From Gammaproteobacteria bacterium (GTDB taxonomy: Bacteria > Pseudomonadota > Gammaproteobacteria > JAJDOJ01): a DNA stretch of 64,000 nucleotides. The DNA lies in NCBI GenBank assembly GCA_026984215.1, contig JALSSO010000081.1, positions 16,657-80,656 of the forward strand, in the 5' to 3' direction. The notes under the pieces are model-generated. The model was given only the letters and a program-made list of their open reading frames with translations. It had not been told where the DNA came from and made no database searches. This document shows positions 1 to 50,557 of this stretch, piece by piece. Each line of letters begins with the position of its first letter. The stretch's first letter is position 1. The position numbers were made by a program, and so were the translations under genes.

Positions 1-306
1 TGTGGGAGACTCGGCCTGCGGCGGCTGCGGAACATCCCCGGCCGGGGGGGTCTCGTCCCGCTCCGCTCTGGTCTCCAACACCAGGATGGGCGAACCCTGC
101 GAAACCCGGTCACCGACCTTAACCAGGAGCTCCCGGACCGTGCCGGCCGCCGGCGACGGAATCTCCATGGAGGCCTTGTCCGACTCCAAGGTGATCAAGG
201 ACTGCTCGGGTTCGACCCCATCTCCGGGGGCCACCAGCACCTCGATGACCTCCACGTCCTTGAAATCGCCGATGTCCGGCACTTCCACCGTGATCGTCTC
301 GGCCAT
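1..306 (-). CDS. 5' part of a gene that begins at the ATG at 306 and runs off the window edge. Its N-terminus is a lipoyl domain ([66 protein letters not shown]...). Given the aceE-aceF order this is probably dihydrolipoyl dehydrogenase (E3) carrying an N-terminal lipoyl domain
   Basis: Manual translation of the reverse complement of 100-306 gives a canonical lipoyl domain with the ESDKA lipoyl-lysine motif. It sits 84 bp downstream of the aceF stop, where E3 normally follows E1-E2. Not in the ORF track because it is truncated by the window edge. Confidence 0.5.
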
Positions 307-1696: not shown

Positions 1697-4372
1697 TCAG
1701 GCGTACAGCGGGTTGATCTTCTCGGCGTCGATGCCATAGCGGGCGATGGCCTCGGCCACCCGCTCACGCCCGATGGCCCCGTCGCGCGCCAGGGCGTGCA
1801 GGGCGGCCACGGCGACGTAATACCGGTTCACCTCGAAGTGGCGGCGCAGATTGGCGCGGGTATCCGAGCGGCCGAACCCGTCGGTGCCCAGCACCACATA
1901 GGTGCCCGGGATCCAGGCCCGCACCTGGTCGGCATAGTTCTTCATGTAATCGGTCGCCGCCACGAACGGCCCCCGCACCCCTTCCAGCACCGTCTCCAGG
2001 TACCCCTTGCGCGGCTCGGCTTCGGGATGCAGCAGGTTCCAGCGCTCCGCGTCCAGGGCGTCGCGCTTGAGCTCGTTGAAGCTGGTCACGCTCCAGATGT
2101 CGGCATCCACGTTCCAGTCCTCGCGCAGGAGATCCGCCGCGGCGATCACCTCGCGCAGGATGGCGCCACTGCCCATGAGTTGCACGCGCAGCTTGCGCCG
2201 CCCCCCTTTCCGGAAGCGGTAGATCCCCCGCAGGATGCCTTCCTCCACGCCCTTGGGCATGGGCGGCTGGGGGTAGTTCTCGTTCATGGCGGTGACGTAG
2301 TAGAAGACGTTTTCCTGGTCCACGTACATGCGTCGCATGCCGTCGTGGACGATCACCGCCAGCTCGTAGGCGAAGCCGGGGTCGTAACTCACACAGTTGG
2401 GCACGGAGGCGGCGGTGATCAGGTTGTGCCCATCCTGGTGCTGCAGCCCCTCGCCGGCCAGGGTGGTGCGCCCGGCGGTACCGCCGATGAGAAAGCCACG
2501 GGCCTGCATGTCACCGGCGGCCCAGATCAGGTCCCCCACCCGCTGGAAGCCGAACATGGAATAGAAGATGTAGAAGGGGATCATGTTGACCCCGTGGGTG
2601 CTGTAGGCGGTCGCCGCCGCGATCCAGGACGACATGGCGCCGGCCTCGGTGATGCCCTCTTCCAGGATCTGACCCCGCTTGTCCTCGCGATAGTACATGA
2701 CCTGGTCGCGGTCCTGAGGCTCGTAGAGCTGGCCCACCGAGGAATAGATACCCAGTTGGCGGAACAGCCCCTCCATGCCGAAGGTGCGCGCCTCGTCGGG
2801 CACGATGGGCACCACGTGCCGCCCGATGTTCTTGTCGCGGGTGAGCAGGGTGAGCAGGCGCACGAAGGCCATGGTGGTGGACATCTCGCGCTCCCCGCTG
2901 CCCTCGAGCAAGGGCCGGAACGTCTCCAGGGGTGGGATCTCCAGCGGGGTGCCGAGCACCTGACGCACCGGCAAGAAGCCCCCCAGCTTCTCGCGCCGGG
3001 ACTTGAGGTAGCGGATCTCCTCGCTGTCTTCGGGCGGGCGGTAGTATTTGGCCTCGGCCACCTCCTCGTCGCTGAGCGGCAGGTTGTAGCGATCCCGGAA
3101 GCGCTTCATGTCTTCCAGATCCATCTTCTTCTGGCTGTGCGTGCCCATGCGCGCCTCCCCGCTGGCGCCCATGCCGTAGCCCTTGACCGTCTTGGCCAGG
3201 ATCACCGTCGGCTGGCCCTGGTGTTTGAGGGCCGCCGCATAGGCGGCATACACCTTGTGTGGGTCGTGGCCGCCGCGGTTGAGCCGCCAGATGTCCTCGT
3301 CGGACATGGTGGCCACCATGTCCAGCAGCTCCGGGTATTTACCGAAGAAGTGCTTGCGCACGTAGGCGCCGTCCTTGGCCTTGTAGTTCTGGTAGTCGCC
3401 GTCGACCGCCTCCTCCATGCGCCGGCGCAGCAGGCCCTTGGTGTCACGGGCCAGCAGCGGATCCCAGTACCCGCCCCAGATGACCTTGATCACGTTCCAG
3501 CCGGCGCCACGGAAGATGGCCTCCAGCTCCTGGATGATCTTGCCGTTGCCGCGCACGGGCCCGTCCAGGCGCTGCAGATTGCAGTTGATCACCCAGGTGA
3601 GGTTGTCCAGGCGCTCGCGGGCAGCCAGCGAGATGGAGCCCAGGGTCTCCGGCTCGTCCACCTCGCCGTCGCCGATGATGGCCCACACGTGGCGGTCGCG
3701 TGTGTTGGCCAGGCCGCGGTCGTGCATGTAGCGCAGGAAACGGGCCTGGTAGATGCTCATGATGGGCCCGAGCCCCATGGACACCGTGGGAAACTGCCAG
3801 AAATGGGGCATGAGCCACGGGTGCGGGTAGGAGGACAACCCCTTGCCGTCCACCTCCTGGCGGAAATGATCGAGCTGCTCCTCGCTCAGGCGCCCCTCCA
3901 GAAAGGCGCGGGCATAGATGCCCGGCGAGGAGTGGCCCTGGAAATAGACCAGATCCCCCCCGTGCTCGTGGGACGGCGCCCGCCAGAAGTGGTTGAAACC
4001 CACGTCGTAGAGGGTGGCCGAAGAGGCGAAGGTGGCGATGTGCCCGCCGAGCTCCGAAGACTCGCGATTGGCCCGCACCACCATGGCCATGGCGTTCCAG
4101 CGGATGTAGGACCGGATGCGCCGCTCCATGGCGGGATCGGCATCGGGCGGCATCTTCTCCTGCAGGTGCGGGGGGATGGTGTTCACGTAGGCCGTGGTGG
4201 CCTTGTAGGGGAGATTGACGCCGGAGCGGCGCGCCTGGTCGATGAGCTGCTCGAGCAGATAGTGGGCCCGTCGCCCCCCTTCCTGCTCGATGACGGCCTC
4301 CAGGGCCTCGATCCATTCCCGGGTCTCCTCGGGATCGGGGTCGTGTTGCAGCAGGTCCGCTTCAGTATTCAT
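1697..4372 (-). CDS. aceE: Pyruvate dehydrogenase E1 component (homodimeric type, about 890 aa)
   Basis: ORF 1697..4882(-). The internal start MNTEADLLQHDPDPEETREWIEALEAV matches the AceE N-terminus; ATG verified at 4372-4370. Full-length similarity to E. coli-type E1. Confidence 0.9.
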   Translation of the reverse strand: MNTEADLLQHDPDPEETREWIEALEAVIEQEGGRRAHYLLEQLIDQARRSGVNLPYKATTAYVNTIPPHLQEKMPPDADPAMERRIRSYIRWNAMAMVVRANRESSELGGHIATFASSATLYDVGFNHFWRAPSHEHGGDLVYFQGHSSPGIYARAFLEGRLSEEQLDHFRQEVDGKGLSSYPHPWLMPHFWQFPTVSMGLGPIMSIYQARFLRYMHDRGLANTRDRHVWAIIGDGEVDEPETLGSISLAARERLDNLTWVINCNLQRLDGPVRGNGKIIQELEAIFRGAGWNVIKVIWGGYWDPLLARDTKGLLRRRMEEAVDGDYQNYKAKDGAYVRKHFFGKYPELLDMVATMSDEDIWRLNRGGHDPHKVYAAYAAALKHQGQPTVILAKTVKGYGMGASGEARMGTHSQKKMDLEDMKRFRDRYNLPLSDEEVAEAKYYRPPEDSEEIRYLKSRREKLGGFLPVRQVLGTPLEIPPLETFRPLLEGSGEREMSTTMAFVRLLTLLTRDKNIGRHVVPIVPDEARTFGMEGLFRQLGIYSSVGQLYEPQDRDQVMYYREDKRGQILEEGITEAGAMSSWIAAATAYSTHGVNMIPFYIFYSMFGFQRVGDLIWAAGDMQARGFLIGGTAGRTTLAGEGLQHQDGHNLITAASVPNCVSYDPGFAYELAVIVHDGMRRMYVDQENVFYYVTAMNENYPQPPMPKGVEEGILRGIYRFRKGGRRKLRVQLMGSGAILREVIAAADLLREDWNVDADIWSVTSFNELKRDALDAERWNLLHPEAEPRKGYLETVLEGVRGPFVAATDYMKNYADQVRAWIPGTYVVLGTDGFGRSDTRANLRRHFEVNRYYVAVAALHALARDGAIGRERVAEAIARYGIDAEKINPLYA

Positions 4373-4619
4373 AGCCACCTCGAAACCGTCCTCCCGCACC
4401 GGGTGGAGGCGGGTTCGTCGCGAAATCGCTCTAGCGCACCGCGCCCGCCGCTCCGGGCGCCGGCGCGATTCCAGGCCCGCACGCCGGTGCGCGGGGCGGC
4501 CGCAGCGCCCCCATGGGCCCCAGAAGAAAGCGACGAAGAATACCATCCCTTCTACCGCCGTGCAGACGCGCAAGGACCGGCGGATCGATTTCCCACGGCC
4601 ATTCCGGTAAGCTGCCGGC

Positions 4620-5285
4620 ATGAGCGAGCACCGCGTCGAACACCCCATCGGGAAACGGTTCCGGGGCTTCCTGCCGGTGGTGGTGGACGTGGAGACCGGC
4701 GGCTTCGACCCGAAGCGGGACGCGCTCCTGGAGATCGCCGCGGTACTGCTCCAGATGAATGAAAAGGGCTTTCTGGAGCCGGCCGAGACCATCGCCACCC
4801 AGGTGGTGCCCTTCGAGGGGGCGAATCTCGACGAGGCCTCCCTCAACGTCAACAAGATCGACCCGTTCCACCCCCTGCGCATCGCCGTGCCCGAACAGCA
4901 GGCCCTGGGTCACGTCTTCTCCAAGGTGCGCAAGGCGGTCAAGGCCAATCAGTGCACACGGGCCATCCTGGTGGGACACAACGCTGCCTTCGATCTGGCC
5001 TTCCTGAACGCGGCCGTGGAACGCACCGGCATCAAGCGTAACCCCTTTCACCCCTTCAGTGCGCTGGACACGGTCACCCTGGGTGCGGTCTGCTACGGGC
5101 AGACCGTGTTGTCACGCATCCTCGAGGCCGCCGGCATTCCTTTCGACAGCAGGGAGGCGCACTCGGCCGTGTACGACGCCCAGAAGACCGCGGAGCTGTT
5201 CTGCACCGTCGTCAACCGCTGGCATACGCTGTGCGACGCACCCGCCTGGCCGGAAGCCGGGGAGCAGGCCCAAGGTGCGGGCTGA
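4620..5285 (+). CDS. rnt: Ribonuclease T (DEDDh 3'-5' exoribonuclease)
   Basis: 221 aa. [12 protein letters not shown]...[14 protein letters not shown]...[14 protein letters not shown] exonuclease motifs typical of RNase T. Confidence 0.85.
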
Positions 5286-5350: not shown

Positions 5351-6307
5351 GTGGTCCTGGTGGATGATCTTTCCGTCCTGGTGGTGGACGACATGCAGTT
5401 CAGCCGCACGGTGGTGGCTACGGCCCTTCAGGGCGCCGGTTGCAGCGACGTGAGGCTGGCGGAGAACGCCGCCGAGGCGCTGGAAATGCTCGGCGAGCGC
5501 ACCGCGGACGTGGTGCTGGTCGACTGGGTGATGCCCGGCATGGATGGAATGGAGCTGCTGGAGGCGATCCGCCAGATGGACGATCGGACCCAGCGCTATA
5601 CCGCCGTGATCATGTTCACCGGCAAGGAGGGCGACGAGGCCATGATGGAGGCCTTCGCCCACGGCGTGGACGACTATCTGCGCAAGCCGTTCAACGACAC
5701 CGAGCTGGTCGCTCGCGTCTACGCCGCCGGGCGCATGGCCGCACTTCAGAACACCCTGCTCGAAACCGCCAATGCCATGGAGGCGGAAAACGAGCAGTTA
5801 CGCCGGATCAACGCCATCGACCCCATCACCCAGATGGGCAACCGCCGCTACGCGGTCGAGCGACTGGAGGTCCTCCTGCGCCAGGTCTCCACCCGCAACG
5901 GCGCCCTGAGCTTTTCCCTGGTGGACGTCGACGGGCTCAGGCAGATCAACGAGCGTTACGGTTACGAGGCCGGTGACGAAGTGCTCCGCGCCGTGGGCCG
6001 GCGGCTGCGCCGCTCGGTACGTCCGCTGGACGACGTGGCCCGCTGGGGCGGTGGATGTTTCGCTGTGTTGATGTACTACACCAGCGCACAACGCTCGCCC
6101 TCGGCGGCGGTGGCGCGCCTGCTCAACGTCGTCAACCGTCGCGGCATCGAGACCTCCAAGACCCGTTTGCCGGTAACCGTCTCCATCGGCTCGGTGAGCC
6201 TGGTCCACGGTGAGGCCCCGATCAGTGCCACGGTCCTCCTGGGCAAGGCCGAGGAGAACCTGATGCTGGCCAAGTCCCAGGGCCGCAACCGCATGATCCT
6301 CAACTGA
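5351..6307 (+). CDS. Response regulator: receiver domain plus a degenerate GGDEF domain (A-site GGGCF instead of GG[D/E]EF, RxxD I-site retained)
   Basis: The N-terminal REC domain carries the phospho-acceptor Asp in its expected context (VVLVDWVMPGMDGMELL). The GGDEF-family domain (INERYGYEAGDEVL ... VRPLDDVARWGGGCFAVLM) aligns to PleD CRYGGEEFVVIM. Confidence 0.75.
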   Translation: MVLVDDLSVLVVDDMQFSRTVVATALQGAGCSDVRLAENAAEALEMLGERTADVVLVDWVMPGMDGMELLEAIRQMDDRTQRYTAVIMFTGKEGDEAMMEAFAHGVDDYLRKPFNDTELVARVYAAGRMAALQNTLLETANAMEAENEQLRRINAIDPITQMGNRRYAVERLEVLLRQVSTRNGALSFSLVDVDGLRQINERYGYEAGDEVLRAVGRRLRRSVRPLDDVARWGGGCFAVLMYYTSAQRSPSAAVARLLNVVNRRGIETSKTRLPVTVSIGSVSLVHGEAPISATVLLGKAEENLMLAKSQGRNRMILN

Positions 6308-6319
6308 CCTTGCGGGATT

Positions 6320-6463
6320 TAGCAGGCCGTTGAAAAACGGCTGCGAAACCCGCCTGCGGCGTTGCGCGCTGCTCGCTCCCTCGCCTATCTCCTTGATATG
6401 TCTCGGTCGCTGCGCTGCGCGCGCCTTGCATCCGGGCTTCTCGCGACGTTTTTCAACACCCTG
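6320..6463 (+). repeat. MITE/REP-like mini inverted-repeat element, copy A. About 144 bp, with terminal inverted repeats GTTGAAAAACG...CGTTTTTCAAC. It abuts the dnaQ stop codon
   Basis: 143 of 144 nt identical to the reverse complement of 14213-14356. The 11-bp perfect terminal inverted repeats and internal dyad symmetry were seen directly in the sequence. Confidence 0.7.
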
Positions 6464-7204
6464 TTAGGTCGCCGGCCCGGACTCCAGCCTGCGCCACACA
6501 CACGCACCGCCGCTGGCCGTATCGATCTCGTCGAGTCGCGCCGCATGCGCCCGACGTTCGTCGTCGTCCGCCCGCACCACCCGCAGGCGCGGGCGGTCAG
6601 GCGGCAGCGGCCGGATCTGCTCCGAACCCGCCCCCAGCGGGTCACCCGCCAGGCTGAGCGCCACCTGTCCGCCGGTCATGGCGAGATAGACTTCGGCCAG
6701 GATGCGGGCGTCGAGTAGCGCGCCGTGCAGGTCCCGTTGGGAGTTGTCGACCCCGTAGCGCTTGCACAGGGCGTCCAGCGAGTTGCGCTGGCCCGGGTGC
6801 CGGCGCCGAGCCAGCGCCAGGGTGTCCACGATGGGACACAAGCGGTCGATGGGGGGGAGATCCCGTTCGAGTCGCGACAGCTCGGCGTTGATGAATCCCA
6901 CGTCGAAGGGGGCGTTGTGAATGATCAGCTCGGCCCCGTCCACGTAGTCCAGGAACTCGTCGACGATGTCGGCGAAACGCGGCTTGTCGGCCAGGAACGC
7001 ATTGCTGATCCCATGCACCGCCTCGGCGCCTTCTTCGATCTCCCGGTCGGGCCGCAAATAGTGGTGGAAATCACGACCGGTGACCCGCCGGTCCAACAGT
7101 TCCACACAGCCGATCTCGATGATTTGATGGCCTTGCTCCACTTCCAGGCCCGTGGTCTCGGTGTCCAGCACGATCTGTCTACGCATGCCTGCGTGCTCCT
7201 CCAC
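6464..7204 (-). CDS. dnaQ: DNA polymerase III epsilon subunit (3'-5' proofreading exonuclease)
   Basis: [10 protein letters not shown]...[12 protein letters not shown]...[14 protein letters not shown] exonuclease I-III motifs. Synteny with rnhA. The start may be the downstream Met at 7186. Confidence 0.85.
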
Positions 7205-7652
7205 GGCGCTGCATCTGCTCGATGGCCTCGTTGGCCAGGCGGTCGGCCAGCTCGTTCTCCGGGTGACCGGTGTGCCCCCGCACCCAGTGCCAGTGTACGT
7301 CGTGGCGGCGTACGGCCTCGTCCAGCCGCTCCCAGAGGTCCCGGTTCTTCACAGCCCCGCCGGAGGCCGTACGCCAGCCCCGCCGGCGCCAGCCTTCCAG
7401 CCAGTTCGTGATCCCGTTGCGCAGGTACTGGGAGTCGGTGGTCAACTCCACACGGCAGGGTCGCTTCAAGGCCTCCAGGGCTCGAATCGCGGCCATCAGT
7501 TCCATACGGTTGTTGGTGGTATGCGGCTCGGCGCCCTTGAGGTGTCGCTCGTGCCCGCCATAGCGCAACACGGCACCCCATCCACCCGGCCCCGGATTGC
7601 CCTTGCAGGCTCCGTCGGTCCAGATCTCGACCACCGGACGGGCGCCGCTCAC
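7179..7652 (-). CDS. rnhA: Ribonuclease HI
   Basis: 157 aa. [19 protein letters not shown]...TNNRMEL...[19 protein letters not shown] matches RNase H1. Confidence 0.9.
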
Positions 7653-8578
7653 CGTGGTCTCGGGACGGATCGGCCCGCAGCACCGGGCGCCGGGGCCACG
7701 CGCGCCGCCTTGGGCTCACTCAACGTGGGTTCGGCCGCCTTGCCGGGCAACAGGGCCGCGCGCGCGCGCCACGCGGGGCGCAGCGGTGTGAGCGTGGCCA
7801 CCCGCTTGATGGCATGGTGGACGTGGATCGGCCCGCCGCCCAGGCGGGTGAACGGGCGCTCCGGGTGACGAACTCCATGCCCACGTGCGGCCACCACGTG
7901 GACCGCCTTCAATTCGAAGCCGAGCAAGGCGATCCAGTCACGCACCCGACTTCCCGAATAGAAGCTGCCGCACCAGGGCGGCCGCCGGCGCTGCAGCAGC
8001 CCCCACAGTCCAAACCGGCTCCAGGGATTGAACCCGATGATGACCAGATGGCCCTCCGGAATCAGAATCCGATCCACCTCCCGCAATACCGCATGGGGAT
8101 CGCGCGAATATTCGAGTGCGTGGTGCAGAACCACCAGATCCACGCTGTCGGTTTGCACGGGCAGCGTATCGGCGCGCGCCAGTGCATCGCAATCACCGCG
8201 TATGCCGCCCAGGATGAAACGGCGTTTGATGGGGCTGGCGCGCAACAGCTTGCGGCTCGCGGCGCCGACGGTCACCACCACGCCGTAGTAACCGAACACA
8301 TCCTCGAGCAAGGGATCGAGCACCCCCTGAAGCTGGCCGCCCACGGCCCGACCCGCCGGGGTCCGATACCAGGCGGACAGACCCGTGGCCACTTCCTGCG
8401 CCGATGCCCCTGCACAGGGCACGCTCTGCTTCACCTGCCAGTCCCCGCGACACTGTGTATCCGCTACGCGCGGCGCCACACCGCCCGCGTCCGGGTCATT
8501 ATCCAGCCTGTGCCCAACGGATACCAGAATGCCGATAAATCGTGGAAACGGGCCCATCCGTCCGACCGGCTCTGGCAC
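7649..8578 (-). CDS. YafS-like class I SAM-dependent methyltransferase
   Basis: [39 protein letters not shown] closely parallels E. coli YafS (CLLAHTLPWCTDPHRLLREADRVLIDDGWLVISGFNPIS). The yafS-rnhA-dnaQ neighbourhood is conserved. The stop overlaps the rnhA start (ATGA). Exact start uncertain. Confidence 0.7.
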
Positions 8579-8792
8579 CCCCGCCCGCAGGATTACACTC
8601 TGTGCCCCGTGGGGCGGCGCCGAGCCCCCTGCGCCGCCGTGACCACCGGTGCCGGAACGTACCGGTCGGACTCCGCCGACCGGCTCATGAACGCAAAACG
8701 GCCATGCAGGTTCAGTCCAAACGGGATTGTGTTGGAACCGTGAGGAGTGGGTAGGCTATGCTCCTGGCGGACCGCGTAGAGGGATTTGCACG

Positions 8793-9620
8793 ATGAGCGC
8801 AGCGGGCGCATTGACGGTCGCCGGCCGGACACATGCGGGGCAGGTACGGACACAGAACGAGGACTACATCGGTTACGACACCCGTATCGGCGCGGTGGTG
8901 CTGGCCGACGGCATGGGCGGGTACCGCGGGGGCGAGATCGCCAGTGCCATTGCGGTCAACACCATTCTGGACCACCTGCGACGAACGCTGCCCGGCGTGC
9001 GTCCCGGCGAGATCGATCCCGACACCGGCGTGACCCGACAGGCACTGGCGGCCCGCGAGGCCATCATCCGCGCCAACGAGACCATCTACAAGACATCCCG
9101 GAGCCAGGCCCAGTACCAGGGCATGGGCACCACCGTGGTGTTGGCCGTCTTTCACGGCAATCGCATCACCATCGGACACGTGGGCGATTCCCGAATCTAC
9201 CGGCTGCGCGACAACGAGCTCGACCAGGTGACCATCGATCACACCTTGCTCCAGGAGCTGGTGGACCGGGGTTTCTACAGTCCGGGCGAGGCGAAGGCTT
9301 CGCTGAACAAAAACCTGGTCACGCGGGCGCTGGGCATCGAACCCACGGTGGCCGTGGACATCATCGAAGACGTGGTCTTTCCCGACGACATCTTCCTGCT
9401 CTGCTCGGACGGCCTCAACGACATGGTCGACGACGAGGACATCCGCCTCGTGCTCCGCTCCTACGAGGAAGACCTGGACAAGGCCGCCGACGAGCTCATC
9501 AACCTGGCCAACGAGGCCGGGGGGCGGGACAACATCTCCGCCATCCTGGTGAAGGCGACGGGCGTACCCGCACAACCCAGCCGTTCCTGGGTGCGCCGTC
9601 TGGCCGACTGGTTCAACTGA
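8793..9620 (+). CDS. PP2C-family Ser/Thr protein phosphatase (Stp-like)
   Basis: RTHAGQVRTQNEDY...VLADGMGG...GTTVVLAVF...GDSRIYR...LCSDGLNDMV...GGRDNISAILV are the PP2C motifs I-XI. ATG at 8793. Confidence 0.85.
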   Translation: MSAAGALTVAGRTHAGQVRTQNEDYIGYDTRIGAVVLADGMGGYRGGEIASAIAVNTILDHLRRTLPGVRPGEIDPDTGVTRQALAAREAIIRANETIYKTSRSQAQYQGMGTTVVLAVFHGNRITIGHVGDSRIYRLRDNELDQVTIDHTLLQELVDRGFYSPGEAKASLNKNLVTRALGIEPTVAVDIIEDVVFPDDIFLLCSDGLNDMVDDEDIRLVLRSYEEDLDKAADELINLANEAGGRDNISAILVKATGVPAQPSRSWVRRLADWFN

Positions 9621-9653
9621 AGGAAATCAGAACACGACACACGATACAAGGTC

Positions 9654-10289
9654 ATGGCCAAACTCATCGTAGGGAAAAACGGGGACATCCTGAGCGAACA
9701 CGCCATCGGCAAGGAATGCATCACCATCGGGCGCAGGCCCGACAACGACATCGTGCTGGAGCATCCCGCCGTCTCCAGCCACCACGCCCAGGTCATCACC
9801 CTGCTCAACGACTCCTTCGTCGAGGACCTGGAAAGCACCAACGGTACGTTCGTCAATGGCCGGCTCGTGCGCAAACACGCCCTGCGCGATGGTGACACCA
9901 TCACCCTGGGCGAATACTGCATCCTGTATCGCAACGAGCTCGCACCCCGTTCCGGGGAGGAGATGGAACGCACGACGGTGCTCAAGCGCCCTTCCACGCC
10001 GGCAAGGCAGTCCGGCGCATCGCCCGCCACGCTACGCATCCTGAGCGGCGGCAACACGGGACGGGAGGTTCAGCTGACCAAGTCCGTGACCACGCTCGGC
10101 AAGCCCAGTGAGGCGGTGGCCGCCATCAGCCGCAAGACACACGGATACTTCATCATCGGCGTGGAGGGCGCCGGTGATCCCGAGCGGATGTCGGTCAACG
10201 GACGGGTCCTGGGTACGCAGGCCGTCCCCCTCGGTGACAACGACATCATCGAGATCGCAGGCGTGAAAATGCAGTTCAACCTCGGCTGA
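9654..10289 (+). CDS. FHA-domain protein with two FHA-like modules
   Basis: N-terminal FHA (ITIGRRPDNDIVLEHPAVSSHHAQV...STNGTFVNG) and a second C-terminal FHA-like region (ATLRILSGGNTGREVQLT...MSVNGRVLG...IIEIAGVKMQF). Lies immediately downstream of the PP2C gene. Confidence 0.8.
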   Translation: MAKLIVGKNGDILSEHAIGKECITIGRRPDNDIVLEHPAVSSHHAQVITLLNDSFVEDLESTNGTFVNGRLVRKHALRDGDTITLGEYCILYRNELAPRSGEEMERTTVLKRPSTPARQSGASPATLRILSGGNTGREVQLTKSVTTLGKPSEAVAAISRKTHGYFIIGVEGAGDPERMSVNGRVLGTQAVPLGDNDIIEIAGVKMQFNLG

Positions 10290-10303
10290 GGCAGCCGCTC
10301 CGC

Positions 10304-11347
10304 TCACAACCCGGCCACCAGTTCCCGCAGCCGGGCGGCGCCGGGGCGCTCCACCGCGCCCCGTTCCGTCACCAGCACGTCCACCAACTCCGCGGGCGTC
10401 ACGTCGAACACTGGATTCCGCGCGCCGGCGCCTTCGGCGGCCACCGGCCGCCCAGCGCAGCGCAGCACCTCCTCGGCCGGCCGCTCCTCCACGGGGATGT
10501 CCGCCCCGCGCGGGGTGGCCAGATCCACGGTGCTGGTAGGCGCCACCACCATGAAACGGACCCCGTGGTGGCGGGCCAGCACCGCGAGCCCATAGGTGCC
10601 GATCTTGTTGGCGACGTCACCGTTGGCCGCGATCCGGTCGGCACCGACGACCACCCATTGCACGACGCCCCGGTGCAGGAGGCTGGCCGCCGCGCCCTCG
10701 CAGATCAGCTCCACGGGGATGCCCTCGGCCACCAGCTCCCAGGCCGTCAGACGCGCGCCCTGCAACCAGGGGCGCGTCTCGCCGGCGAATACGGCCCCGA
10801 CGCGGCCCTGGGCCCAGCCGCTACGGATCACCCCGAGGGCCGTCCCGTAGCCGCCGGTGGCCAGCGCCCCCGTATTGCAATGGGTGAGCACGCCGCCTCC
10901 GTCCAGGTAGGCGGCGCCCAGATCCCCCATGCGGTGATTGGCCTCCACGTCCTCCCGGTGGATCCGACCGGCCTCCGCGAGCAGGGCCTCGCGCGGGTCG
11001 CCCCAGATCTCCTCCAGCACGCGGCGCATCCGGCGCACCGCCCAGGCGAGATTGACCGCCGTGGGCCGCGCCGCCTCCAGGCGTTCCAGCTCTCGGTCCA
11101 CACGCCCCCGCCACGCGCTGCCCGGGGCGTAATGGCGGATCACGGAAAGGGCCACCCCATAGGCCGCCGCGATGCCGATGGCCGGCGCACCGCGGACCAC
11201 CATGTCACCGATGGCGGTGGCCACCGCGTCACAGGATGTGCAGCGGATCCATTGCTCGGTCCGGGGCAGCAGGCGTTGGTCCAACAACTCCAGCGCTCCA
11301 CCGCTCCAGCGCAGCGCTCGAATGGTGTCGTGTGGGCGTGTGTCCAT
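10304..11347 (-). CDS. mtnA: S-methyl-5-thioribose-1-phosphate isomerase (methionine salvage)
   Basis: ORF 10304..11416(-). The internal start [28 protein letters not shown] is the typical MtnA N-terminus; eIF-2B-like fold motifs are present. ATG at 11347. Confidence 0.85.
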
Positions 11348-11445
11348 GGTCCCTTCCCGCCGTCGTCGCACTGCAGGTCCTTCTAGCACAATCCCCTGGG
11401 AGGCGCAGTTCGGCACACACGCCCGAGCGGGTACACTTGCCTCTC

Positions 11446-12771
11446 ATGGAGCCGTGCGACCTCGTCATCGAGCCCCGCTGGATCGTGCCGGTGGAACCAG
11501 TCGGCCAAGTCCTGGAAGGACATGCGCTGGCCCTGCGGGGCACGCGCATCCAGGCCATCGCACCCGTTGCCACGCTCAGGGCGCGGTTCCCCCGCGCGGC
11601 GCGCCTGCGCCTGGATCACCATGCCCTGCTGCCGGGGCTGGTCGACGCCCACACGCACTTGGCCATGGACCTGCTGCGCGGCTACGCCGACGACCTCCCC
11701 TTGGCCGCCTGGCTCTCCGAACGCATCTGGCCGGCGGAATCGCGCTGGGTGAACGAGGACTTCGTCTACGACGGCACGCGCCTGGCCCTGGCCGAGTGCA
11801 TCCGGGGCGGTGTCACTTGTTTCAACGACATGTATTTCTTCCCCGAGATCACGGGACGCGCCGCCCGTGAGGCGGGGCTGCGCGGGCGGGTGGGCCTCAT
11901 CGTCCTGGACTTCCCCACGGTGTACGCCAACGACGCCGCCGAATACCTGGACAAGGCGGTGGCGGTGCACGACACGTTTCGCGACGATCCCCTGCTCGGC
12001 ACGGCGTTCGCGCCGCACGCGCCCTATACGGTCTCCGACGAACCCCTCCGGCGCCTGGCCACCTGGCAGGCCGAACTGGACATTCCGATCCACATGCATG
12101 TCAACGAGACCGAGCAAGAGGTGCGCGAACACATCGCCAGGCACGGCGAGCGTCCGCTGCAGCGTCTCGATCGGCTGGGGTTGCTGGGGCCCCACTTCCA
12201 GGCCGTGCACATGGTGGTGGCCGCGCCCGAGGACCGCGCCCTCTTGGCCGAGCGGGCGGCACACGCCATCCATTGCCCCGAATCGAACCTGAAACTGGCC
12301 TCCGGAATATCGCCGGTGAGCGCGCTGCTGGAAGCCGGCGTGAACTTGGCCCTGGGCACCGACGGGGCGGCCAGCAACAACGACCTCGATCTGTTCGGCG
12401 AGATGCGTACCGCCGCCCTGCTGGCGAAGGGGATCACGGGTGACGCCACCGCCCTGCCCGCGGCCCGGATTCTGGAGGCGGCCACCCTGGGTGGCGCCCG
12501 GGCCCTGGGCCTGGAGGCGGAGATCGGCTCCCTGGCGCCGGGCAAGGCGGCCGACCTGATCGCCGTGGATCTGGACGCCGCCGAGACCCTACCCTGTTAC
12601 GATGTGGTCGGTCAGCTCGTCTATGCCGCGGGCCGCCATCAGGTCACCGACGTGTGGGTGGCCGGACGGCGGCTGCTCGAAGACCGCCGCACGACCACCC
12701 TCGACCTGCCGGAGATCCTGGCGCGCGCGCGGGACTGGCAAGACCGCATCGCAGAGGAACGCAGCCCATGA
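11446..12771 (+). CDS. mtaD: 5-methylthioadenosine/S-adenosylhomocysteine deaminase (amidohydrolase, TRZ/ATZ family)
   Basis: Start MEPCDLVIEPRWIVPV at 11446. Metal-binding HTHLAMDLLRG...HMHVNET...GTDGAASNN motifs. Divergent from mtnA. Confidence 0.8.
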   Translation: MEPCDLVIEPRWIVPVEPVGQVLEGHALALRGTRIQAIAPVATLRARFPRAARLRLDHHALLPGLVDAHTHLAMDLLRGYADDLPLAAWLSERIWPAESRWVNEDFVYDGTRLALAECIRGGVTCFNDMYFFPEITGRAAREAGLRGRVGLIVLDFPTVYANDAAEYLDKAVAVHDTFRDDPLLGTAFAPHAPYTVSDEPLRRLATWQAELDIPIHMHVNETEQEVREHIARHGERPLQRLDRLGLLGPHFQAVHMVVAAPEDRALLAERAAHAIHCPESNLKLASGISPVSALLEAGVNLALGTDGAASNNDLDLFGEMRTAALLAKGITGDATALPAARILEAATLGGARALGLEAEIGSLAPGKAADLIAVDLDAAETLPCYDVVGQLVYAAGRHQVTDVWVAGRRLLEDRRTTTLDLPEILARARDWQDRIAEERSP

Positions 12772-13514
12772 ACGAGACACCATCACGACCGCAGGCCGAC
12801 GCAGCGCCCCCACACGTCAACGTCGACCCCGCCGAGATCCGCAAGTTCGAGGAGATCGCCCACCGCTGGTGGGACCCGGAAAGCGAGTTCCGCCCGCTGC
12901 ACGAGATCAACCCCCTGCGTGTGGAATGGATCGACCGCCACGCGCAACTGGCGGACAAGACCGTCTGCGACGTGGGCTGCGGCGGCGGCATCCTGGCCGA
13001 GGCCATGGCCGCACGCGGCGCCGAGGTCACGGGCATCGACCTGGGTGAGACGCCCATCACCGTGGCCCGGCTGCACCTGCTCGAGTCCGGACTGAACGTG
13101 GAATACCTGCAGACCTCGCCCGAGCACCTCGCCGAGGAGCGCCCCGGAGCCTACGACGTGGTCACTTGCATGGAGATGCTCGAACACGTCCCGGATCCCG
13201 CCTCCGTGGTCCAGGCCTGCAGCCGGCTCGCGCGACCCGGCGGCTGGGTGTTCTTCTCCACCATCAACCGCAACCCCAAGTCCTTCCTGTTCGCCATCGT
13301 GGGGGCCGAGTACGTGCTGCGCCTGCTCCCCCGGGGCACCCACGAGTACGCCCGCTTCATCCGCCCGGCGGAACTGGAGACCTGGGCGCGGAGCGCGGGC
13401 CTGGTGCCCAAGGATATGACCGGACTCACCTATAACCCGCTCACCCGCCGCTACCGCCTGGAAGACGACGTGAGCGTCAACTACATGATGGCCTTGCGGC
13501 GCGAACACGCATGA
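12768..13514 (+). CDS. ubiG: Bifunctional 3-demethylubiquinol 3-O-methyltransferase / 2-polyprenyl-6-hydroxyphenol methylase
   Basis: Internal start MNETPS...FEEIAHRWWDPESEFRPLHEINPLRVEWI...VCDVGCGGGILAE are UbiG signatures. The ATG at 12768 overlaps the mtaD stop (ATGA). Confidence 0.85.
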   Translation: MNETPSRPQADAAPPHVNVDPAEIRKFEEIAHRWWDPESEFRPLHEINPLRVEWIDRHAQLADKTVCDVGCGGGILAEAMAARGAEVTGIDLGETPITVARLHLLESGLNVEYLQTSPEHLAEERPGAYDVVTCMEMLEHVPDPASVVQACSRLARPGGWVFFSTINRNPKSFLFAIVGAEYVLRLLPRGTHEYARFIRPAELETWARSAGLVPKDMTGLTYNPLTRRYRLEDDVSVNYMMALRREHA

Positions 13515-14200
13515 CCGGGGCCGTGTTCTTCGACCTGGACGGGACCCTGGCCGACACGGCCCCGGACCTGGCCCGGGCACTGAACCGGGTGCTCGCCGAG
13601 GAGGGCCGTCCCGCCCTGCCCTACCCACGGATCCGAGCCGAGGTCTCGCGGGGCGGCACGGCGCTGATCCGGCTCGCCTTCGGCGGGACCCCGGAAGACC
13701 CGGACTTTCAGCGCCGCCGGCGCCGGTTCCTGGATCTCTACGCCGAGGGGCTGTGCGTGGAGACTCGCCTGTTTCCCGGCATCGAGACGCTGCTCGGCCG
13801 ATTGGAGGCCGCGGGCTTGCGCTGGGGCATCGTCACCAACAAACCCGCCTGGCTCACCGATCCCCTGGTGCGGCGGCTCGGCCTGGCTGGACGGGCCGCG
13901 GCGGTGGTCAGCGGCGACACCACCGATGAGCGCAAGCCCCACCCGCAACCGCTGCTCCATGCCGCGCGGGTGGCCGGCGCGGACCCAGAGGCCAGCCTTT
14001 ACGTGGGCGACGACCCACGCGACGTCCAAGCCGGCCGCGCCGCGGGCATGCGCACGCTGGGCGCCCTGTACGGCTATGTCCATCCCGACGAGGACCCGGC
14101 GCGCTGGGGCGCCGACGGACTGGTGCACGCACCTGCGGAGATTCTGAAATGGGTGCTTCGCGACGGTGTGCAGGCCGGGGGCCGCAAGGCGTTCGGCTGA
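13511..14200 (+). CDS. gph: HAD-family phosphoglycolate phosphatase
   Basis: VFFDLDGTLADTAPDL...GIVTNKP...YVGDDPRDVQAGRAAGM are HAD motifs I-III. Follows ubiG as in many gammaproteobacteria. Confidence 0.8.
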   Translation: MTGAVFFDLDGTLADTAPDLARALNRVLAEEGRPALPYPRIRAEVSRGGTALIRLAFGGTPEDPDFQRRRRRFLDLYAEGLCVETRLFPGIETLLGRLEAAGLRWGIVTNKPAWLTDPLVRRLGLAGRAAAVVSGDTTDERKPHPQPLLHAARVAGADPEASLYVGDDPRDVQAGRAAGMRTLGALYGYVHPDEDPARWGADGLVHAPAEILKWVLRDGVQAGGRKAFG

Positions 14201-14212
14201 GGGGCTCCCTAT

Positions 14213-14356
14213 CAGGGTGTTGAAAAACGTCGCGAGAAGCCCGGATGCAAGGCGCGCGCAGCGCAGCGACCGAGACATATCAAGGAGATAGGCGAGGGAG
14301 CGAGCAGCGCGCAACGCCGCAGGCGGGTTTCGCAGCAGTTTTTCAACGGCCTGCTA
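14213..14356 (-). repeat. MITE/REP-like element, copy B, in inverted orientation relative to copy A. Sits 12 bp after the gph stop
   Basis: The reverse complement is 143/144 identical to 6320-6463, with the same terminal inverted repeats. Confidence 0.7.
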
Positions 14357-14520
14357 TACCGTGCGTGCCGGTGTGGCCCCATATCCGGCGTCGCCGGCCG
14401 GTGCGCGGTGGTCCGTCCCGAACGCGCTTTCCGGACGAGCCCGCTCCCTCGTCGTGCCCGCGAACGCGAGCGTCCGGTAGGGTACCTCCGGGGTGAGAGA
14501 TGGGGCCCAACGCCGCCGGC

Positions 14521-16626
14521 TCACCGTGTCTGCCCCCCCACAGGCAGCGAAGAGCCAACTCCCCACGCCGCCAGACGTGCCTCGTCCGCCGACCAGATCT
14601 CCTGATGCAGCCGCTGCACACTCTCGGGATCGCGCAACAGGCGCATGCGTTCCGCGACCGAAAGGCATCCGGGCCCCCCGGCCAACACCCGCGCGCGCAG
14701 CTCGGCCAGCGCGGCACGCGTCGCCTCGGGCCGCCTCGTATGGGGTCGCAGCAAGGACAGGTGCAGCGCGTTGAGCGCGGGATCCGCGAGCGCCTGCGCG
14801 AAACCAGGCGCTGCCCCGCGGCGCATGCCGGCGGCGGGGGAAGCGGCCTCCTGCAACCGGCGCAAAACCGGATCCGGTGCGGTCTCGGCCGGGATCAGGA
14901 ACAGCCCCAGCCGCCGGGCGGCGGCGCCTGGACCGATGCGACTGCTCACGACCGATACGGGGACGGCGAGAATCAGCGCCACGACGATGGGTGCGATCCA
15001 GGGTAGAAACGCGGGATCGATGGAATAGACGGCCGCAGACCAAGCCAGGGCGAGCAACGATCCAGGACCATGGTGCCACAAGGCCTCGCGCCAGCCCGTT
15101 CCGGCCTCGGCGCGCCGCTGGGTGCCCCAGCCGGCCTCGCGCCCCACCAGGGTGAGGATCACATAGCGCGCATGAAACAACATTCGTACGGGCGCCAGCA
15201 AGGCGGAGAACAGGGCCTCTAGCAGCACGCTGAGAGACGCCCGCGACCAGCCCCCGTAGTCCGCCACCGCCCCACCCCTGGCGAGACTCAGCAACCCGAG
15301 CAGCTTCGGTCCGAAGAGCACCACTGCGGTGGTGCCGACCAGCCCCAGGGCCCACTCGGGTTTCCAAGACTCCGGCCAGTTGGGAAACAGCACGAAGTGA
15401 TCCGGGAAATACTGCGGGTCCGCGGTGCCGTGCTGCACGGCCGCCAACACCGTGCCCAGCACGAGCAACACGAGCCACAGCAGGGAAGACCCATAGGCCA
15501 TGATCCCGTAAAGGAACATGACCCGGTGGGTGAGCTTGAGACCGCCCTCAGAGAGCAAACGCAGATGCTGGAGGTTGCCCTGGGACCAGCGCCGGTCCCG
15601 TTTGAGTTCGTCGAGCAGTGTCGGCGGCGGCTCCTCGTAGCTGCCGGGAAGGTCGTGCGCCAGCCACACCTCCCAACCGGCGCGGCGCATGTATGCGGCT
15701 TCCACGAAGTCGTGACTCAGGATCTCGCCCCCCATCGCCGTGCGCCCGGGCAGCCGTCCCAGGGCGCAGTGGCGCATGAACGGAGCGAGGCGGATGATGG
15801 CGTTGTGTCCCCAGTAGTAGCCATCGCCCATCTGCCAATAGCTCAATCCGGCGGCGAACAGGTTGCCATAGACGTGATTGGCGAACTGCTGGATCCGGGC
15901 ATAGAGCGACTTCCGGTTCACGATCCGGGGTGCCGTCTGCAGGATGCCGATCTGACGGCGCTGCTCCATGATGCGCACCATCGCCACCAGCGTCTCCCCG
16001 GCCATCACGCTGTCGGCGTCCAGGACTACCATGTACCGGAAACCAGCCCCCCAGCGACGGCAGAAGTCCGCGATGTTGCCCGTCTTGCGTTTGATGCGTG
16101 TGCGTCGGATGCGGTAATGGATACGCTCGAAGTCGTCCTCGTCCCGGCACCAGTCGGCCCAAGCCTTTTCCTCGGCGATCCAGGTGTCGGGATCGGACGA
16201 ATCGCTCAGCACGAAGAACTCGAACGCACCGAGCTGACCGGTCTCCCGCAACGAACGGTAGGTCGCGCGCAGCCCAGCGAACACGCGCGCCACGTCCTCG
16301 TTACAGATGGGCATCACGATCGCGGTGCGCGGCAAGGGGGCGGTGTCCCGCCGGAGCGTATCCAGCACGCCGCAGACCGAGTACCGCCGCGAGGGCATCC
16401 ACCCGACCACGAAACCCGCCACCGCCGTCCAGAAGCCCAGGGAGATCCAGAAGAACAGGACCGCGAACAGCCCGACCAGCGCGAATTCCACCGGCCCGGC
16501 CCCGTGTTGTGGAAGCAGCTCGACGAAATATCGCGTGGCGATCCCGCTCTGGGTCATCGCCAGACCGAAGAGCATGAACCGGCGCCGATACGCGGTCCAC
16601 GGCCAATGCTGCAACGGGTCGGCCAT
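14521..16626 (-). CDS. opgH: Glucans biosynthesis glucosyltransferase H (osmoregulated periplasmic glucan synthase)
   Basis: 701 aa, multi-pass membrane GT2. IVMPICNED...VVLDADSVM...QGNLQHLRL are MdoH/OpgH signatures. Confidence 0.9.
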   Translation of the reverse strand: MADPLQHWPWTAYRRRFMLFGLAMTQSGIATRYFVELLPQHGAGPVEFALVGLFAVLFFWISLGFWTAVAGFVVGWMPSRRYSVCGVLDTLRRDTAPLPRTAIVMPICNEDVARVFAGLRATYRSLRETGQLGAFEFFVLSDSSDPDTWIAEEKAWADWCRDEDDFERIHYRIRRTRIKRKTGNIADFCRRWGAGFRYMVVLDADSVMAGETLVAMVRIMEQRRQIGILQTAPRIVNRKSLYARIQQFANHVYGNLFAAGLSYWQMGDGYYWGHNAIIRLAPFMRHCALGRLPGRTAMGGEILSHDFVEAAYMRRAGWEVWLAHDLPGSYEEPPPTLLDELKRDRRWSQGNLQHLRLLSEGGLKLTHRVMFLYGIMAYGSSLLWLVLLVLGTVLAAVQHGTADPQYFPDHFVLFPNWPESWKPEWALGLVGTTAVVLFGPKLLGLLSLARGGAVADYGGWSRASLSVLLEALFSALLAPVRMLFHARYVILTLVGREAGWGTQRRAEAGTGWREALWHHGPGSLLALAWSAAVYSIDPAFLPWIAPIVVALILAVPVSVVSSRIGPGAAARRLGLFLIPAETAPDPVLRRLQEAASPAAGMRRGAAPGFAQALADPALNALHLSLLRPHTRRPEATRAALAELRARVLAGGPGCLSVAERMRLLRDPESVQRLHQEIWSADEARLAAWGVGSSLPVGGQTR

Positions 16627-49981: not shown

Positions 49982-50013
49982 CGGTTTACCTCCAGACGTG
50001 GTCGGGACGGACG

Positions 50014-50392: not shown

Positions 50393-50482
50393 AACAGGCC
50401 GTCGAAAAACGGTCGCGAAAGCCGGTCGCTGCGTCGTGTCTCCGCGCGCCGGGCGCTCGAAACACTCGCGACGTTTTCAACC
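50393..50482 (+). repeat. Short diverged member of the MITE/REP-like family: the termini are conserved and the central roughly 50 bp are deleted
   Basis: aggccgtCgaaaaacggTCgcgaaaGcc ... ctcgcgacgttttcaac aligns to both ends of the 144-bp element. Sits between the DUF302 gene and the EGKCG peptide gene. Confidence 0.5.
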
Positions 50483-50557
50483 GCCTTCCAAGGCGCCCCA
50501 TCTCGGGGCGCACAACCAGGGTACGCACCCAGGGGTTGGTTGGATGCATCCAGCGGC

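What the first reader, a model, noticed from the sequence alone, without database searches (positions are those of the whole stretch)
6320..14356. Two 143/144-identical copies of a 144-bp MITE/REP-like element in inverted orientation bracketing a 7.7-kb housekeeping block
The element has 11-bp perfect terminal inverted repeats (GTTGAAAAACG / CGTTTTTCAAC), extended imperfect terminal inverted repeats and internal dyad symmetry, so it folds into a long hairpin. Copy A directly abuts the dnaQ stop codon and copy B lies 12 bp after the gph stop, with no target duplication obvious. Near-identity of the copies implies recent mobilisation or gene conversion. As inverted repeats 7.7 kb apart they could mediate inversion of the yafS-rnhA-dnaQ...ubiG-gph segment. 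Their transcribed portions (ORF-like MRAARSLAYLLDMSRSL... in both) would form stable 3'-UTR stem-loops that could act as transcript stabilisers or terminators for dnaQ and gph.
Basis: seen in the sequence. Interest (0 to 1): 0.55.

Follow-up and report, generated by a model that had tools for sequence, protein, structure and literature searches.

The report
Two copies of an IS5-type MITE
The two near-identical 141-bp hairpin repeats are recent insertions of a small non-coding transposon (a MITE). It is moved by IS5-family transposases and tends to land on stop codons, which is ordinary biology, except that its central part is shared by MITEs carrying three different sets of transposase-recognition ends.

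Summary
Arms 6320-6473 and 14203-14356 form a 97%-complementary inverted pair.

The unit is 141 bp: copy A 6323-6463 (+) and copy B 14213-14353 (-), 140/141 identical. It has 16-nt terminal inverted repeats, CAGGSYGTTGAAAAAC.

The same repeats end 1.32-1.34-kb IS5-family insertion sequences annotated as ISPst12 and ISDisp1, which duplicate CTAG, TTAA or TTAG. Relatives with 86-90% identical DnaQ lack the element at the dnaQ junction, and the 86% relative also at the gph junction. Nine more insertion sites of the same subfamily occur in metagenomes. More than 118 related copies occur in about 45 Beta- and Gammaproteobacterial genomes.

So it is a non-autonomous IS5-type MITE, most likely mobilised in trans. 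It is not a REP element, a local duplication or a gene.

No inversion, canonical terminator or promoter was found.

One unexpected point: a central module of about 66 nt is 76-87% conserved between MITE classes. Their ends match three IS5-family transposase clades that are only 23-27% identical. The hairpin is kept by compensatory changes. What the central module does is unknown.

The parts
6319..6322 (.). Target-site duplication of copy A, left copy (TTAG)
   Evidence: identical to 6464-6467. The first base co-varies between the two flanks when copies A and B are compared.
6323..6463 (+). MITE copy A, 141 bp, core in + orientation
   Evidence: It lies between the convergent GGDEF response regulator (+) and dnaQ (-).
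6323..6338 (+). Left terminal inverted repeat of copy A, CAGGCCGTTGAAAAAC
   Evidence: Matches the TIRs of ISPst12, ISDisp1 and related ISs over at least 15 of 16 nt in four of the five ISs examined; the Burkholderia SFA1 IS differs at 1-2 positions.
6359..6424 (+). Central module of copy A, about 66 nt. It is conserved across MITE classes with different ends. Its apex is TATC-TCCTT-GATA.
   Evidence: (alignment columns 40-105).
6448..6463 (-). Right terminal inverted repeat of copy A, CAGGGTGTTGAAAAAC on the - strand
6464..6467 (.). Target-site duplication of copy A, right copy (TTAG). Bases 6464-6466 (TTA) are the TAA stop codon of dnaQ on the - strand.
6464..7186 (-). dnaQ-like 3'-5' exonuclease gene (240 aa) whose stop codon was the insertion target
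   Evidence: (PF00929), and (100% match to P0001).
5351..6307 (+). Response-regulator/GGDEF gene, convergent with dnaQ
13511..14200 (+). HAD phosphatase (gph-like) gene that ends 12 nt before copy B
14209..14212 (.). Target-site duplication of copy B: CTAT on the + strand, ATAG in element orientation
14213..14353 (-). MITE copy B, 141 bp, core in - orientation, 140/141 identical to copy A
14252..14317 (-). Central module of copy B
14354..14357 (.). Target-site duplication of copy B, second copy (CTAT)
14521..16626 (-). Family-2 glycosyltransferase gene, convergent with gph
50395..50483 (+). Decayed, shorter relative of about 89 bp. It has the same kind of ends (CAGGCCGTCGAAAAAC ... GTTTTCAACCGCCT) but lacks the central module.

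Best explanation
[quoted passage not shown] It has no coding capacity and ends in the 16-nt terminal inverted repeats recognised by one clade of IS5-family transposases, the ISPst12/ISDisp1 type.

A transposase supplied in trans by such an IS cut the target at a 4-bp NTAR site (TTAG, ATAG) and inserted the element. Repair of the staggered cut duplicated the 4 bp. This step is inferred.

In a 68% G+C genome, YTAR sites that tolerate an insertion are largely stop codons and gene ends. Copy A landed exactly on the TAA of dnaQ, and the duplication regenerated the stop. Copy B landed 8 nt (14201-14208) after the gph stop, so the element body starts 12 nt after it.

Both insertions are recent and lineage-specific. 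The inverted arrangement around the 7.7-kb block is a by-product of two independent insertions, not a functional unit.

Shown here: the anatomy, the target duplications, the matching autonomous ISs, the element-free sites in relatives, and the dispersed family. Inferred: trans-mobilisation by an ISPst12/ISDisp1-like transposase in this host.
For: Anatomy:
- 141 bp, 16-nt TIRs and perfect 4-bp flanking duplications at both copies.

Autonomous elements with the same ends:
- P. putida pW2 IS: 1332 bp, CTAG/CTAG.
- Burkholderia sp. SFA1 IS: 1335 bp, CTAG/CTAG, 368-aa DDE transposase.
- An IMG/VR contig IS: 1328 bp, CTAG/CTAG.
- ISPst12 in a P. aeruginosa plasmid: 1331 bp, CTAG/CTAA. ISDisp1 in a Diaphorobacter plasmid: 1321 bp, TTAA/TTAA.
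- The transposases have DUF772 + DDE_Tnp_1. They score 260-288 bits on NCBIfam NF033581 'IS5 family transposase', cutoff 140.
- PMC3735179 reports that ISPst12 makes TTAG duplications and inserts at CTAG.

Mobility:
- A relative with 90% identical DnaQ has only 9 nt between dnaQ and the GGDEF gene. An 86% relative has 43 nt. Its 20.7-kb syntenic region holds no element at either site. The window spacer is 156 nt, which equals 11 + 141 + 4.

Dispersion:
- Nine further insertion sites of the same subfamily occur in JGI metagenomes. Three copies are 137-138/141 identical to the window copy. TSDs are CTAG, CTAA and TTAG.
- At least 118 genome loci from about 45 genomes carry the core.
- Of the 97 elements examined, most are 141-143 bp with matching 4-bp flanks.

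Stop-codon landing:
- In 29 of 51 NTAR-flanked elements the duplication supplies the stop codon of an open frame of at least 80 codons. The figure is 21% for all YTAR sites in the same loci.
Against: - No IS5-family transposase is present in the 64-kb window or in the flanks of the genome loci. The source of transposase in this host is therefore not shown.
- The MITE shares only the 16-nt TIR with the known ISs, not their subterminal sequence. It is not a simple deletion derivative.
- Copy B's target ATAG departs from strict YTAR.
- The empty sites come from relatives with 86-90% identical DnaQ, whose stop codon is TGA. No exact pre-insertion TTAG allele was seen.
Confidence: 0.9

Rival explanations
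1. Beyond being a MITE, the element carries a selected central module: the roughly 66-nt apical part of the hairpin. This module could help transposition by bending the DNA. For example, a host factor such as IHF bound at the exact centre could bring two ends only 141 bp apart together. Alternatively it could act in RNA as a processing or stabilising hairpin.
For: - Between MITE classes, the TIRs and outer arms are 42-55% identical. The inner arm, which the search pattern did not fix, is 76-87% identical.
- The classes' ends match IS5-family ISs whose transposases are only 23-27% identical.
- The hairpin is kept by compensatory changes. 96.7% of cells are paired and 21 of 33 pairs show double changes, against 28-51% paired in the slid controls. 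This includes interior pairs 32/115, 33/114, 36/111, 37/110 and 52/96.
- Diverged unselected copies keep the apex through TATC/GATA to TACC/GGTA.
- The reverse strand of the apex reads TATCAANNAGATA. That is 8 of the 9 specified positions of the IHF consensus WATCAANNNNTTR (consensus recalled from memory), centred on the element.
Against: - The loci were collected with an exact 25-base core pattern, so conservation of that stretch is partly built in.
- TIR covariation is required by any transposon.
- Within-class comparisons do not consistently show a slower centre. In class III the inner arm is 0.80 against 0.86 for the outer arm.
- Palindromes can be homogenised by template switching without any selection.
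- No Rfam family matches.
- Orientation relative to flanking genes shows no significant bias, 17 versus 9 in tandem contexts with crude gene calls.
- The IHF match is one short near-consensus.
Confidence: 0.25
2. The copies have been co-opted as 3'-end RNA elements (terminators or stabilisers) for dnaQ, gph and their convergent neighbours.
For: - Both copies sit in convergent intergenic regions directly after stop codons.
- Family-wide, the convergent context is the most common: 27 of 60, against about a quarter expected.
- The hairpin is very stable.
Against: - No intrinsic-terminator pattern. The T run lies inside the stem, not after it.
- Position at gene ends is explained by the YTAR target plus purifying selection.
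- Relatives function without the element at the same junctions.
- No expression data are available.
Confidence: 0.15
3. The two copies arose by a local inverted duplication or are kept identical by gene conversion. They are not mobile.
For: Only one mismatch separates the two copies, which lie 7.7 kb apart.
Against: - Each copy has its own, different 4-bp duplication.
- Nothing beyond the 141 bp is shared.
- Equally similar copies sit at nine unrelated sites elsewhere.
- Matching ISs exist.
Confidence: 0.02
4. It is a REP/BIME-type element spread by a RAYT (IS200/IS605-like) transposase.
For: It is palindromic, extragenic and multi-copy.
Against: - It is 141 bp with 16-nt TIRs and 4-bp target duplications. 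REPs are 20-40 nt, lack both features and carry a GTAG-type head (from established knowledge).
- The ends match DDE IS5-family elements.
Confidence: 0.02

Closest known systems
ISPst12 and ISDisp1 (IS5 family insertion sequences of Pseudomonas and Comamonadaceae plasmids)
   Same: They have essentially the same 16-nt terminal inverted repeat, CAGGCCGTTGAAAAA(A/C/T/G). They make 4-bp duplications of CTAG, CTAA, TTAA or TTAG (PMC3735179).
   Different: The ISs are 1.32-1.34 kb and encode a 360-aa DDE transposase. The window element is 141 bp, non-coding, and shares nothing with them beyond the TIR.
Bacterial MITEs such as the Correia element (Neisseria), ERIC/IRU (enterobacteria), Nezha and Chunjie (all recalled from memory)
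   Same: All are short non-coding elements with terminal inverted repeats, target duplications, hairpin potential, many copies and intergenic positions near gene ends. Correia also has a central IHF site (from memory).
   Different: The sequences are unrelated. Correia duplicates TA and its parent transposase is unknown. Here the duplication is 4-bp NTAR and the parent-type ISs are identified. The shared centre with interchangeable ends was not recalled for those families.
REP/BIME elements
   Same: Extragenic palindromes at the 3' ends of genes.
   Different: REPs have no TIRs and no target duplication, are 20-40 nt, and are linked to RAYT transposases. These defining features are not met here.

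Membership tests
MITE (non-autonomous DDE transposon derivative) | Small size (well under about 500 bp) and no coding capacity | tested here: met
   The element is 141 bp. ORFs through it have no Pfam match. Classes differ by 1-2-nt indels.
MITE (non-autonomous DDE transposon derivative) | Terminal inverted repeats | tested here: met
   16-nt TIRs, 14/16 matching in the window copies and 14/14 in the compared positions of most relatives.
MITE (non-autonomous DDE transposon derivative) | Site-specific target duplication flanking each copy | tested here: met
   TTAG/TTAG and ATAG/ATAG in the window. 4/4 matching flanks in most of the 97 elements examined and in the metagenome copies.
MITE (non-autonomous DDE transposon derivative) | Multiple dispersed copies | tested here: met
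   Two copies plus one decayed relative in the window. Nine other sites of the same subfamily. At least 118 loci of the wider family. The copy number in this organism's own genome is not testable from 64 kb.
MITE (non-autonomous DDE transposon derivative) | Presence/absence polymorphism (empty sites) | tested here: met
   Relatives with 86-90% identical DnaQ lack the element at the dnaQ junction. The 86% relative also lacks it at the gph junction. The sites are not sequence-identical to the inferred pre-insertion site.
IS5 family (ISPst12/ISDisp1 clade) derivative | TIRs matching those of an autonomous IS that encodes an IS5-family DDE transposase | tested here: met
   Five ISs with the same TIR. 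Transposases reach NF033581 at 260-288 bits against a cutoff of 140.
IS5 family (ISPst12/ISDisp1 clade) derivative | 4-bp duplication at YTAR-type targets | tested here: met
   Window TTAG and ATAG. Family-wide CTAA, CTAG, TTAG and TTAA. ISs CTAG and TTAA. Supported by the literature.
IS5 family (ISPst12/ISDisp1 clade) derivative | A matching transposase source in the same cell | not testable with these tools
   None is present in the 64-kb window or in the locus flanks. The whole genome is not available here.
IS5 family (ISPst12/ISDisp1 clade) derivative | Actual mobilisation by that transposase | not testable with these tools
   This needs a transposition assay.
REP/BIME | 20-40-nt imperfect palindrome without TIRs or target duplication, RAYT-associated | tested here: not met
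   141 bp with TIRs and a TSD.
Intrinsic (Rho-independent) terminator | GC-rich stem-loop followed directly by a T run | tested here: not met
   No site at either copy on either strand.
Any Rfam RNA family | Score at or above the family's gathering threshold | tested here: not met
   No match in the window. Only chance-level hits appear at E up to 10.

The most novel reading that the evidence does not exclude
The 141-143-bp element is a modular 'universal passenger'. A conserved apical hairpin module of about 66 nt has repeatedly acquired the terminal repeats of at least three distantly related IS5-family transposase clades: ISPst12/ISDisp1-type, a Ralstonia/Caballeronia-type with GGAAACGCTGATTAAT ends, and an IS1246-like type with GGGCACCTCGAAAAACC ends.

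On this reading the module is kept because it does something. The most plausible role is as a host-factor (IHF-like) bending site that lets two ends only about 140 bp apart synapse. Alternatively it may be an RNA or DNA hairpin that makes insertions at stop codons harmless.
Probability: 0.25. Interest if true: 0.6.

Novelty: new member of a known kind. Interest (0 to 1): 0.35.

Why it matters
For this window the result is mostly annotation.
- The repeats should be marked as IS5-type MITE insertions.
- The dnaQ stop codon is a regenerated target duplicate.
- Short-read assemblies break at these repeats. The ENA contig L126 ends exactly at the last base of copy B.

More generally, the family is abundant in poorly studied chemolithotrophic Beta- and Gammaproteobacteria. 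These include Nitrosomonas, Halothiobacillus, Gallionellaceae, Thiobacillus, Rhodocyclaceae and Porticoccaceae. I found no description of it in the searchable literature.

Its stop-codon landing shows how a target preference (YTAR) lets a transposon spread in GC-rich genomes without killing genes.

The shared centre combined with swapped ends would, if functional, give a testable case of what a MITE needs besides its terminal repeats.

Tried and rejected
Longer patterns were used afterwards.
- ISGlo4 (IS5-like), which lies next to a same-TIR MITE on Trichlorobacter pGLOV01, was checked as a parent. Its ends do not match.
- Full-text searches for the TIR and core sequences, and for MITE/IS701/YTAR/Nitrosomonas terms, found no description of the family.
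- IS701 and ISAs1 were considered as parents from memory (4-bp YTAR duplication; CAGGG ends). They were dropped once IS5-family ISs with exact TIR matches were found.
- The exact-protein look-up of the 246-aa dnaQ ORF failed because of the wrong start codon. The 240-aa form matched.
- Crude ORF-based orientation analysis was noisy. For example, it mis-called the gene next to copy B. It is used only as a rough indication.
- The core is absent from IMG/VR and present in 1 of 72,556 plasmids. No obvious phage or plasmid vector was identified.
- I first assumed a betaproteobacterial host. DnaQ relatives instead point to a Chromatiales/Thiohalobacter-like gammaproteobacterium.


Full report
**1. 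Observation**

The repeat finder finds one long inverted pair in the window: 6320-6473 and 14203-14356, 154 nt, 97% complementary, 7729 nt apart. I aligned copy A with the reverse complement of copy B. Similarity starts and stops abruptly.

- The shared unit is CAGG...CCTG, 141 bp. Copy A is 6323-6463 and copy B is 14213-14353.
- There is one internal mismatch.
- The ends are 16-nt inverted repeats, CAGGCCGTTGAAAAAC and CAGGGTGTTGAAAAAC.
- This 16-mer pattern occurs five times in the window against 0.09 expected.
- The fifth match is a decayed, shorter relative at 50395-50483.
- The element folds into one long hairpin, -67 and -74 kcal/mol, z about -6.

**2. Target duplications**

The bases just outside the element are TTAG on both sides of copy A. 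They are ATAG on both sides of copy B in element orientation, which reads CTAT on the + strand.

The only position that differs between the two copies on the left flank differs in the same way on the right flank. These bases are therefore site-specific 4-bp target duplications, not part of the element.

The right duplicate of copy A, 6464-6467, contains the TAA stop codon of dnaQ on the - strand.

**3. Gene context**

Pfam confirms the following:
- a response-regulator/GGDEF gene (+, ends 6307);
- dnaQ-like (-), then rnhA (-), a methyltransferase (-), FHA (+), mtnA-like (-), an amidohydrolase (+) and a ubiG-like methyltransferase (+);
- a HAD phosphatase (+, ends 14200);
- a family-2 glycosyltransferase (-, ends 14521).

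Both copies lie between convergent genes.

**4. Parent-type insertion sequences**

A low-stringency BLASTN of the element against plasmids gave 20-nt end-only matches. These proved to be other MITEs with the same ends and YTAG flanks but unrelated interiors:
- P. aeruginosa RW109 plasmid;
- a Cupriavidus necator plasmid;
- Trichlorobacter pGLOV01.

A 30-nt TSD+TIR query then found full-length elements:

| Host record | IS length | Flanking 4 bp |
|---|---|---|
| P. putida pW2 | 1332 bp | CTAG/CTAG |
| Burkholderia sp. SFA1 plasmid p3 | 1335 bp | CTAG/CTAG |
| IMG/VR contig | 1328 bp | CTAG/CTAG |
| ISPst12, P. aeruginosa plasmid | 1331 bp | CTAG/CTAA |
| ISDisp1, Diaphorobacter plasmid | 1321 bp | TTAA/TTAA |

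The last two names are those given by PGAP annotation.

Their transposases carry DUF772 + DDE_Tnp_1. They score 260-288 bits on NCBIfam NF033581 'IS5 family transposase', cutoff 140. A published analysis states that ISPst12 makes TTAG duplications and inserts at CTAG (PMC3735179).

The MITE shares only the TIR with these ISs, not their subterminal sequence.

**5. Evidence of insertion**

The exact DnaQ exists in public assemblies, and its relatives place the host among Chromatiales/Thiohalobacter-like Gammaproteobacteria.

- In a relative with 90% identical DnaQ, dnaQ and the GGDEF gene are 9 nt apart.
- In an 86% relative they are 43 nt apart.
- The window spacer is 156 nt, which equals 11 + 141 + 4.
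- The 20.7-kb syntenic region of the 86% relative has the same gene order and no element at either junction.

A closely related strain (ENA contig L126) has both copies in the same arrangement. That contig stops exactly at the last base of copy B.

So both insertions are lineage-specific and recent, and no inversion has been fixed.

**6. Dispersion**

A metagenome scan with a subfamily-specific 24-mer found nine other insertion sites.
- Three copies are 137-138/141 identical to the window copy.
- Flanks are CTAG, CTAA or TTAG.

The near-identity of the window pair therefore reflects a recent burst. It does not need gene conversion.

- MAGs of Nitrosomonas, Halothiobacillus, Porticoccaceae, Gallionellaceae, Rhodocyclaceae, Thiobacillus, Azoarcus and one Geobacteraceae;
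- cultured Tepidimonas aquatica, Tepidiphilus olei, Halothiobacillus sp. DCM-1 and Tibeticola sediminis.

**7. Family anatomy**

Of 97 elements with full flanks, most are 141-143 bp with matching 4-bp flanks. They fall into classes by their ends.

| Class | Ends | Target duplication |
|---|---|---|
| I | CAG(G/C)..GTTGAAAAAC | YTAR |
| II | GGAAACGCTGATTAAT and variants | YTAR |
| III | GGGCACCTCGAAAAACC | 4 bp of any sequence |

- Class II ends match a 1210-bp IS5-family IS in Caballeronia (flanks CTAA/CTAA), and ends in Ralstonia and Burkholderia.
- Class III ends match the 1276-bp IS on pWW0, which I recall as IS1246.
- The three transposase types are 23-27% identical to one another.

Between classes, identity by region is as follows:
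- TIRs 42-55%;
- outer arms 43-50%;
- inner arm 76-87%, a region the search pattern did not fix.

RNAalifold and pair counting show the hairpin is maintained.
- 96.7% of cells are paired, against 28-51% in the slid controls.
- 21 of 33 pairs show double changes, including interior pairs.
- Diverged copies found by BLAST rather than by the pattern keep the apex by compensatory change.

The picture is a conserved centre, arms that evolve by compensation, and class-specific ends. Part of this is built in by the way the loci were collected, and TIR covariation is expected for any transposon. I treat a function for the centre as an open hypothesis with probability about 0.25. The apex reads TATCAANNAGATA on one strand, one mismatch from the IHF consensus as I recall it. 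This was not tested.

**8. Stop-codon landing**

In 29 of 51 NTAR-flanked elements the duplication supplies the stop codon of an open frame of at least 80 codons, on both sides in five of them. The figure is 21% for all YTAR sites in the same loci.

With crude gene calls, the convergent context is the most frequent, 27 of 60.

This fits a YTAR target preference plus loss of gene-disrupting insertions. It explains why copy A 'abuts' dnaQ.

**9. What it is not**

- No Rfam family matches.
- There is no sigma-70 promoter or intrinsic-terminator pattern at either copy.
- The ORFs across the element have no Pfam match.
- REP/BIME features are not met.
- No transposase lies in the window.

**10. Verdict**

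This is an ordinary biological object: two recent insertions of a non-autonomous IS5-type MITE.
- The target duplication was missed.
- The 'REP-like' label does not hold.
- The coding hint does not hold.

The wider family appears undescribed in the searchable literature. Its shared centre with interchangeable ends is the only feature that goes beyond routine.

Noticed in passing
window 50014-50361 (-), with repeats at 50013-50217: A 115-aa secreted-looking protein with repeated GEGKCG units. It matches NCBIfam NF050137, 'HvfA family oxazolone/thioamide-modified RiPP metallophore' (34.9 bits, cutoff 19.5; ORF; repeat families D4 and D7). The decayed MITE relative at 50395-50483 lies 34 nt upstream of its start codon.
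   Followed up: partly
window 53095-53517 (-), repeats at 53219-53386: A 140-aa protein containing 21-nt tandem repeats that encode (E/D)KRFEQ(V/I) heptads. Only weak coiled-coil-type family hits were found.
   Followed up: partly
window 40-282 and 1420-1662: A 243-nt direct repeat, 71% identical, 1380 nt apart. It lies beside the pyruvate dehydrogenase E1 gene (1697-4882, -) and may represent repeated lipoyl domains of an E2 gene.
   Followed up: no
L121 3005-3176, L122 about 2870-3016, L123 3005-3284: MITEs in P. aeruginosa, Cupriavidus and Trichlorobacter plasmids have the same CAGGCCGTTGAAAA ends and YTAG flanks but completely unrelated interiors. The ISPst12/ISDisp1-type transposases therefore serve several unrelated passengers.
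   Followed up: partly
L169, L171, L216 (Halothiobacillus MAGs): Some class III elements carry an extra insert of about 21 nt (AACGCAAAGCTGGCGTCAGCCCGC) inside one or both arms. This suggests a second, nested small repeat.
   Followed up: no
L126 (ENA ERZ27262647 k141_186449) and L261 (Logan SRR7968113): Short-read contigs of the same or a near-identical strain end at or just inside the MITE. The element therefore fragments assemblies of this organism.
   Followed up: partly
window 4620-5285 (+): A second RNase_T-family exonuclease gene lies two genes from dnaQ. The position is conserved in relatives.
   Followed up: no
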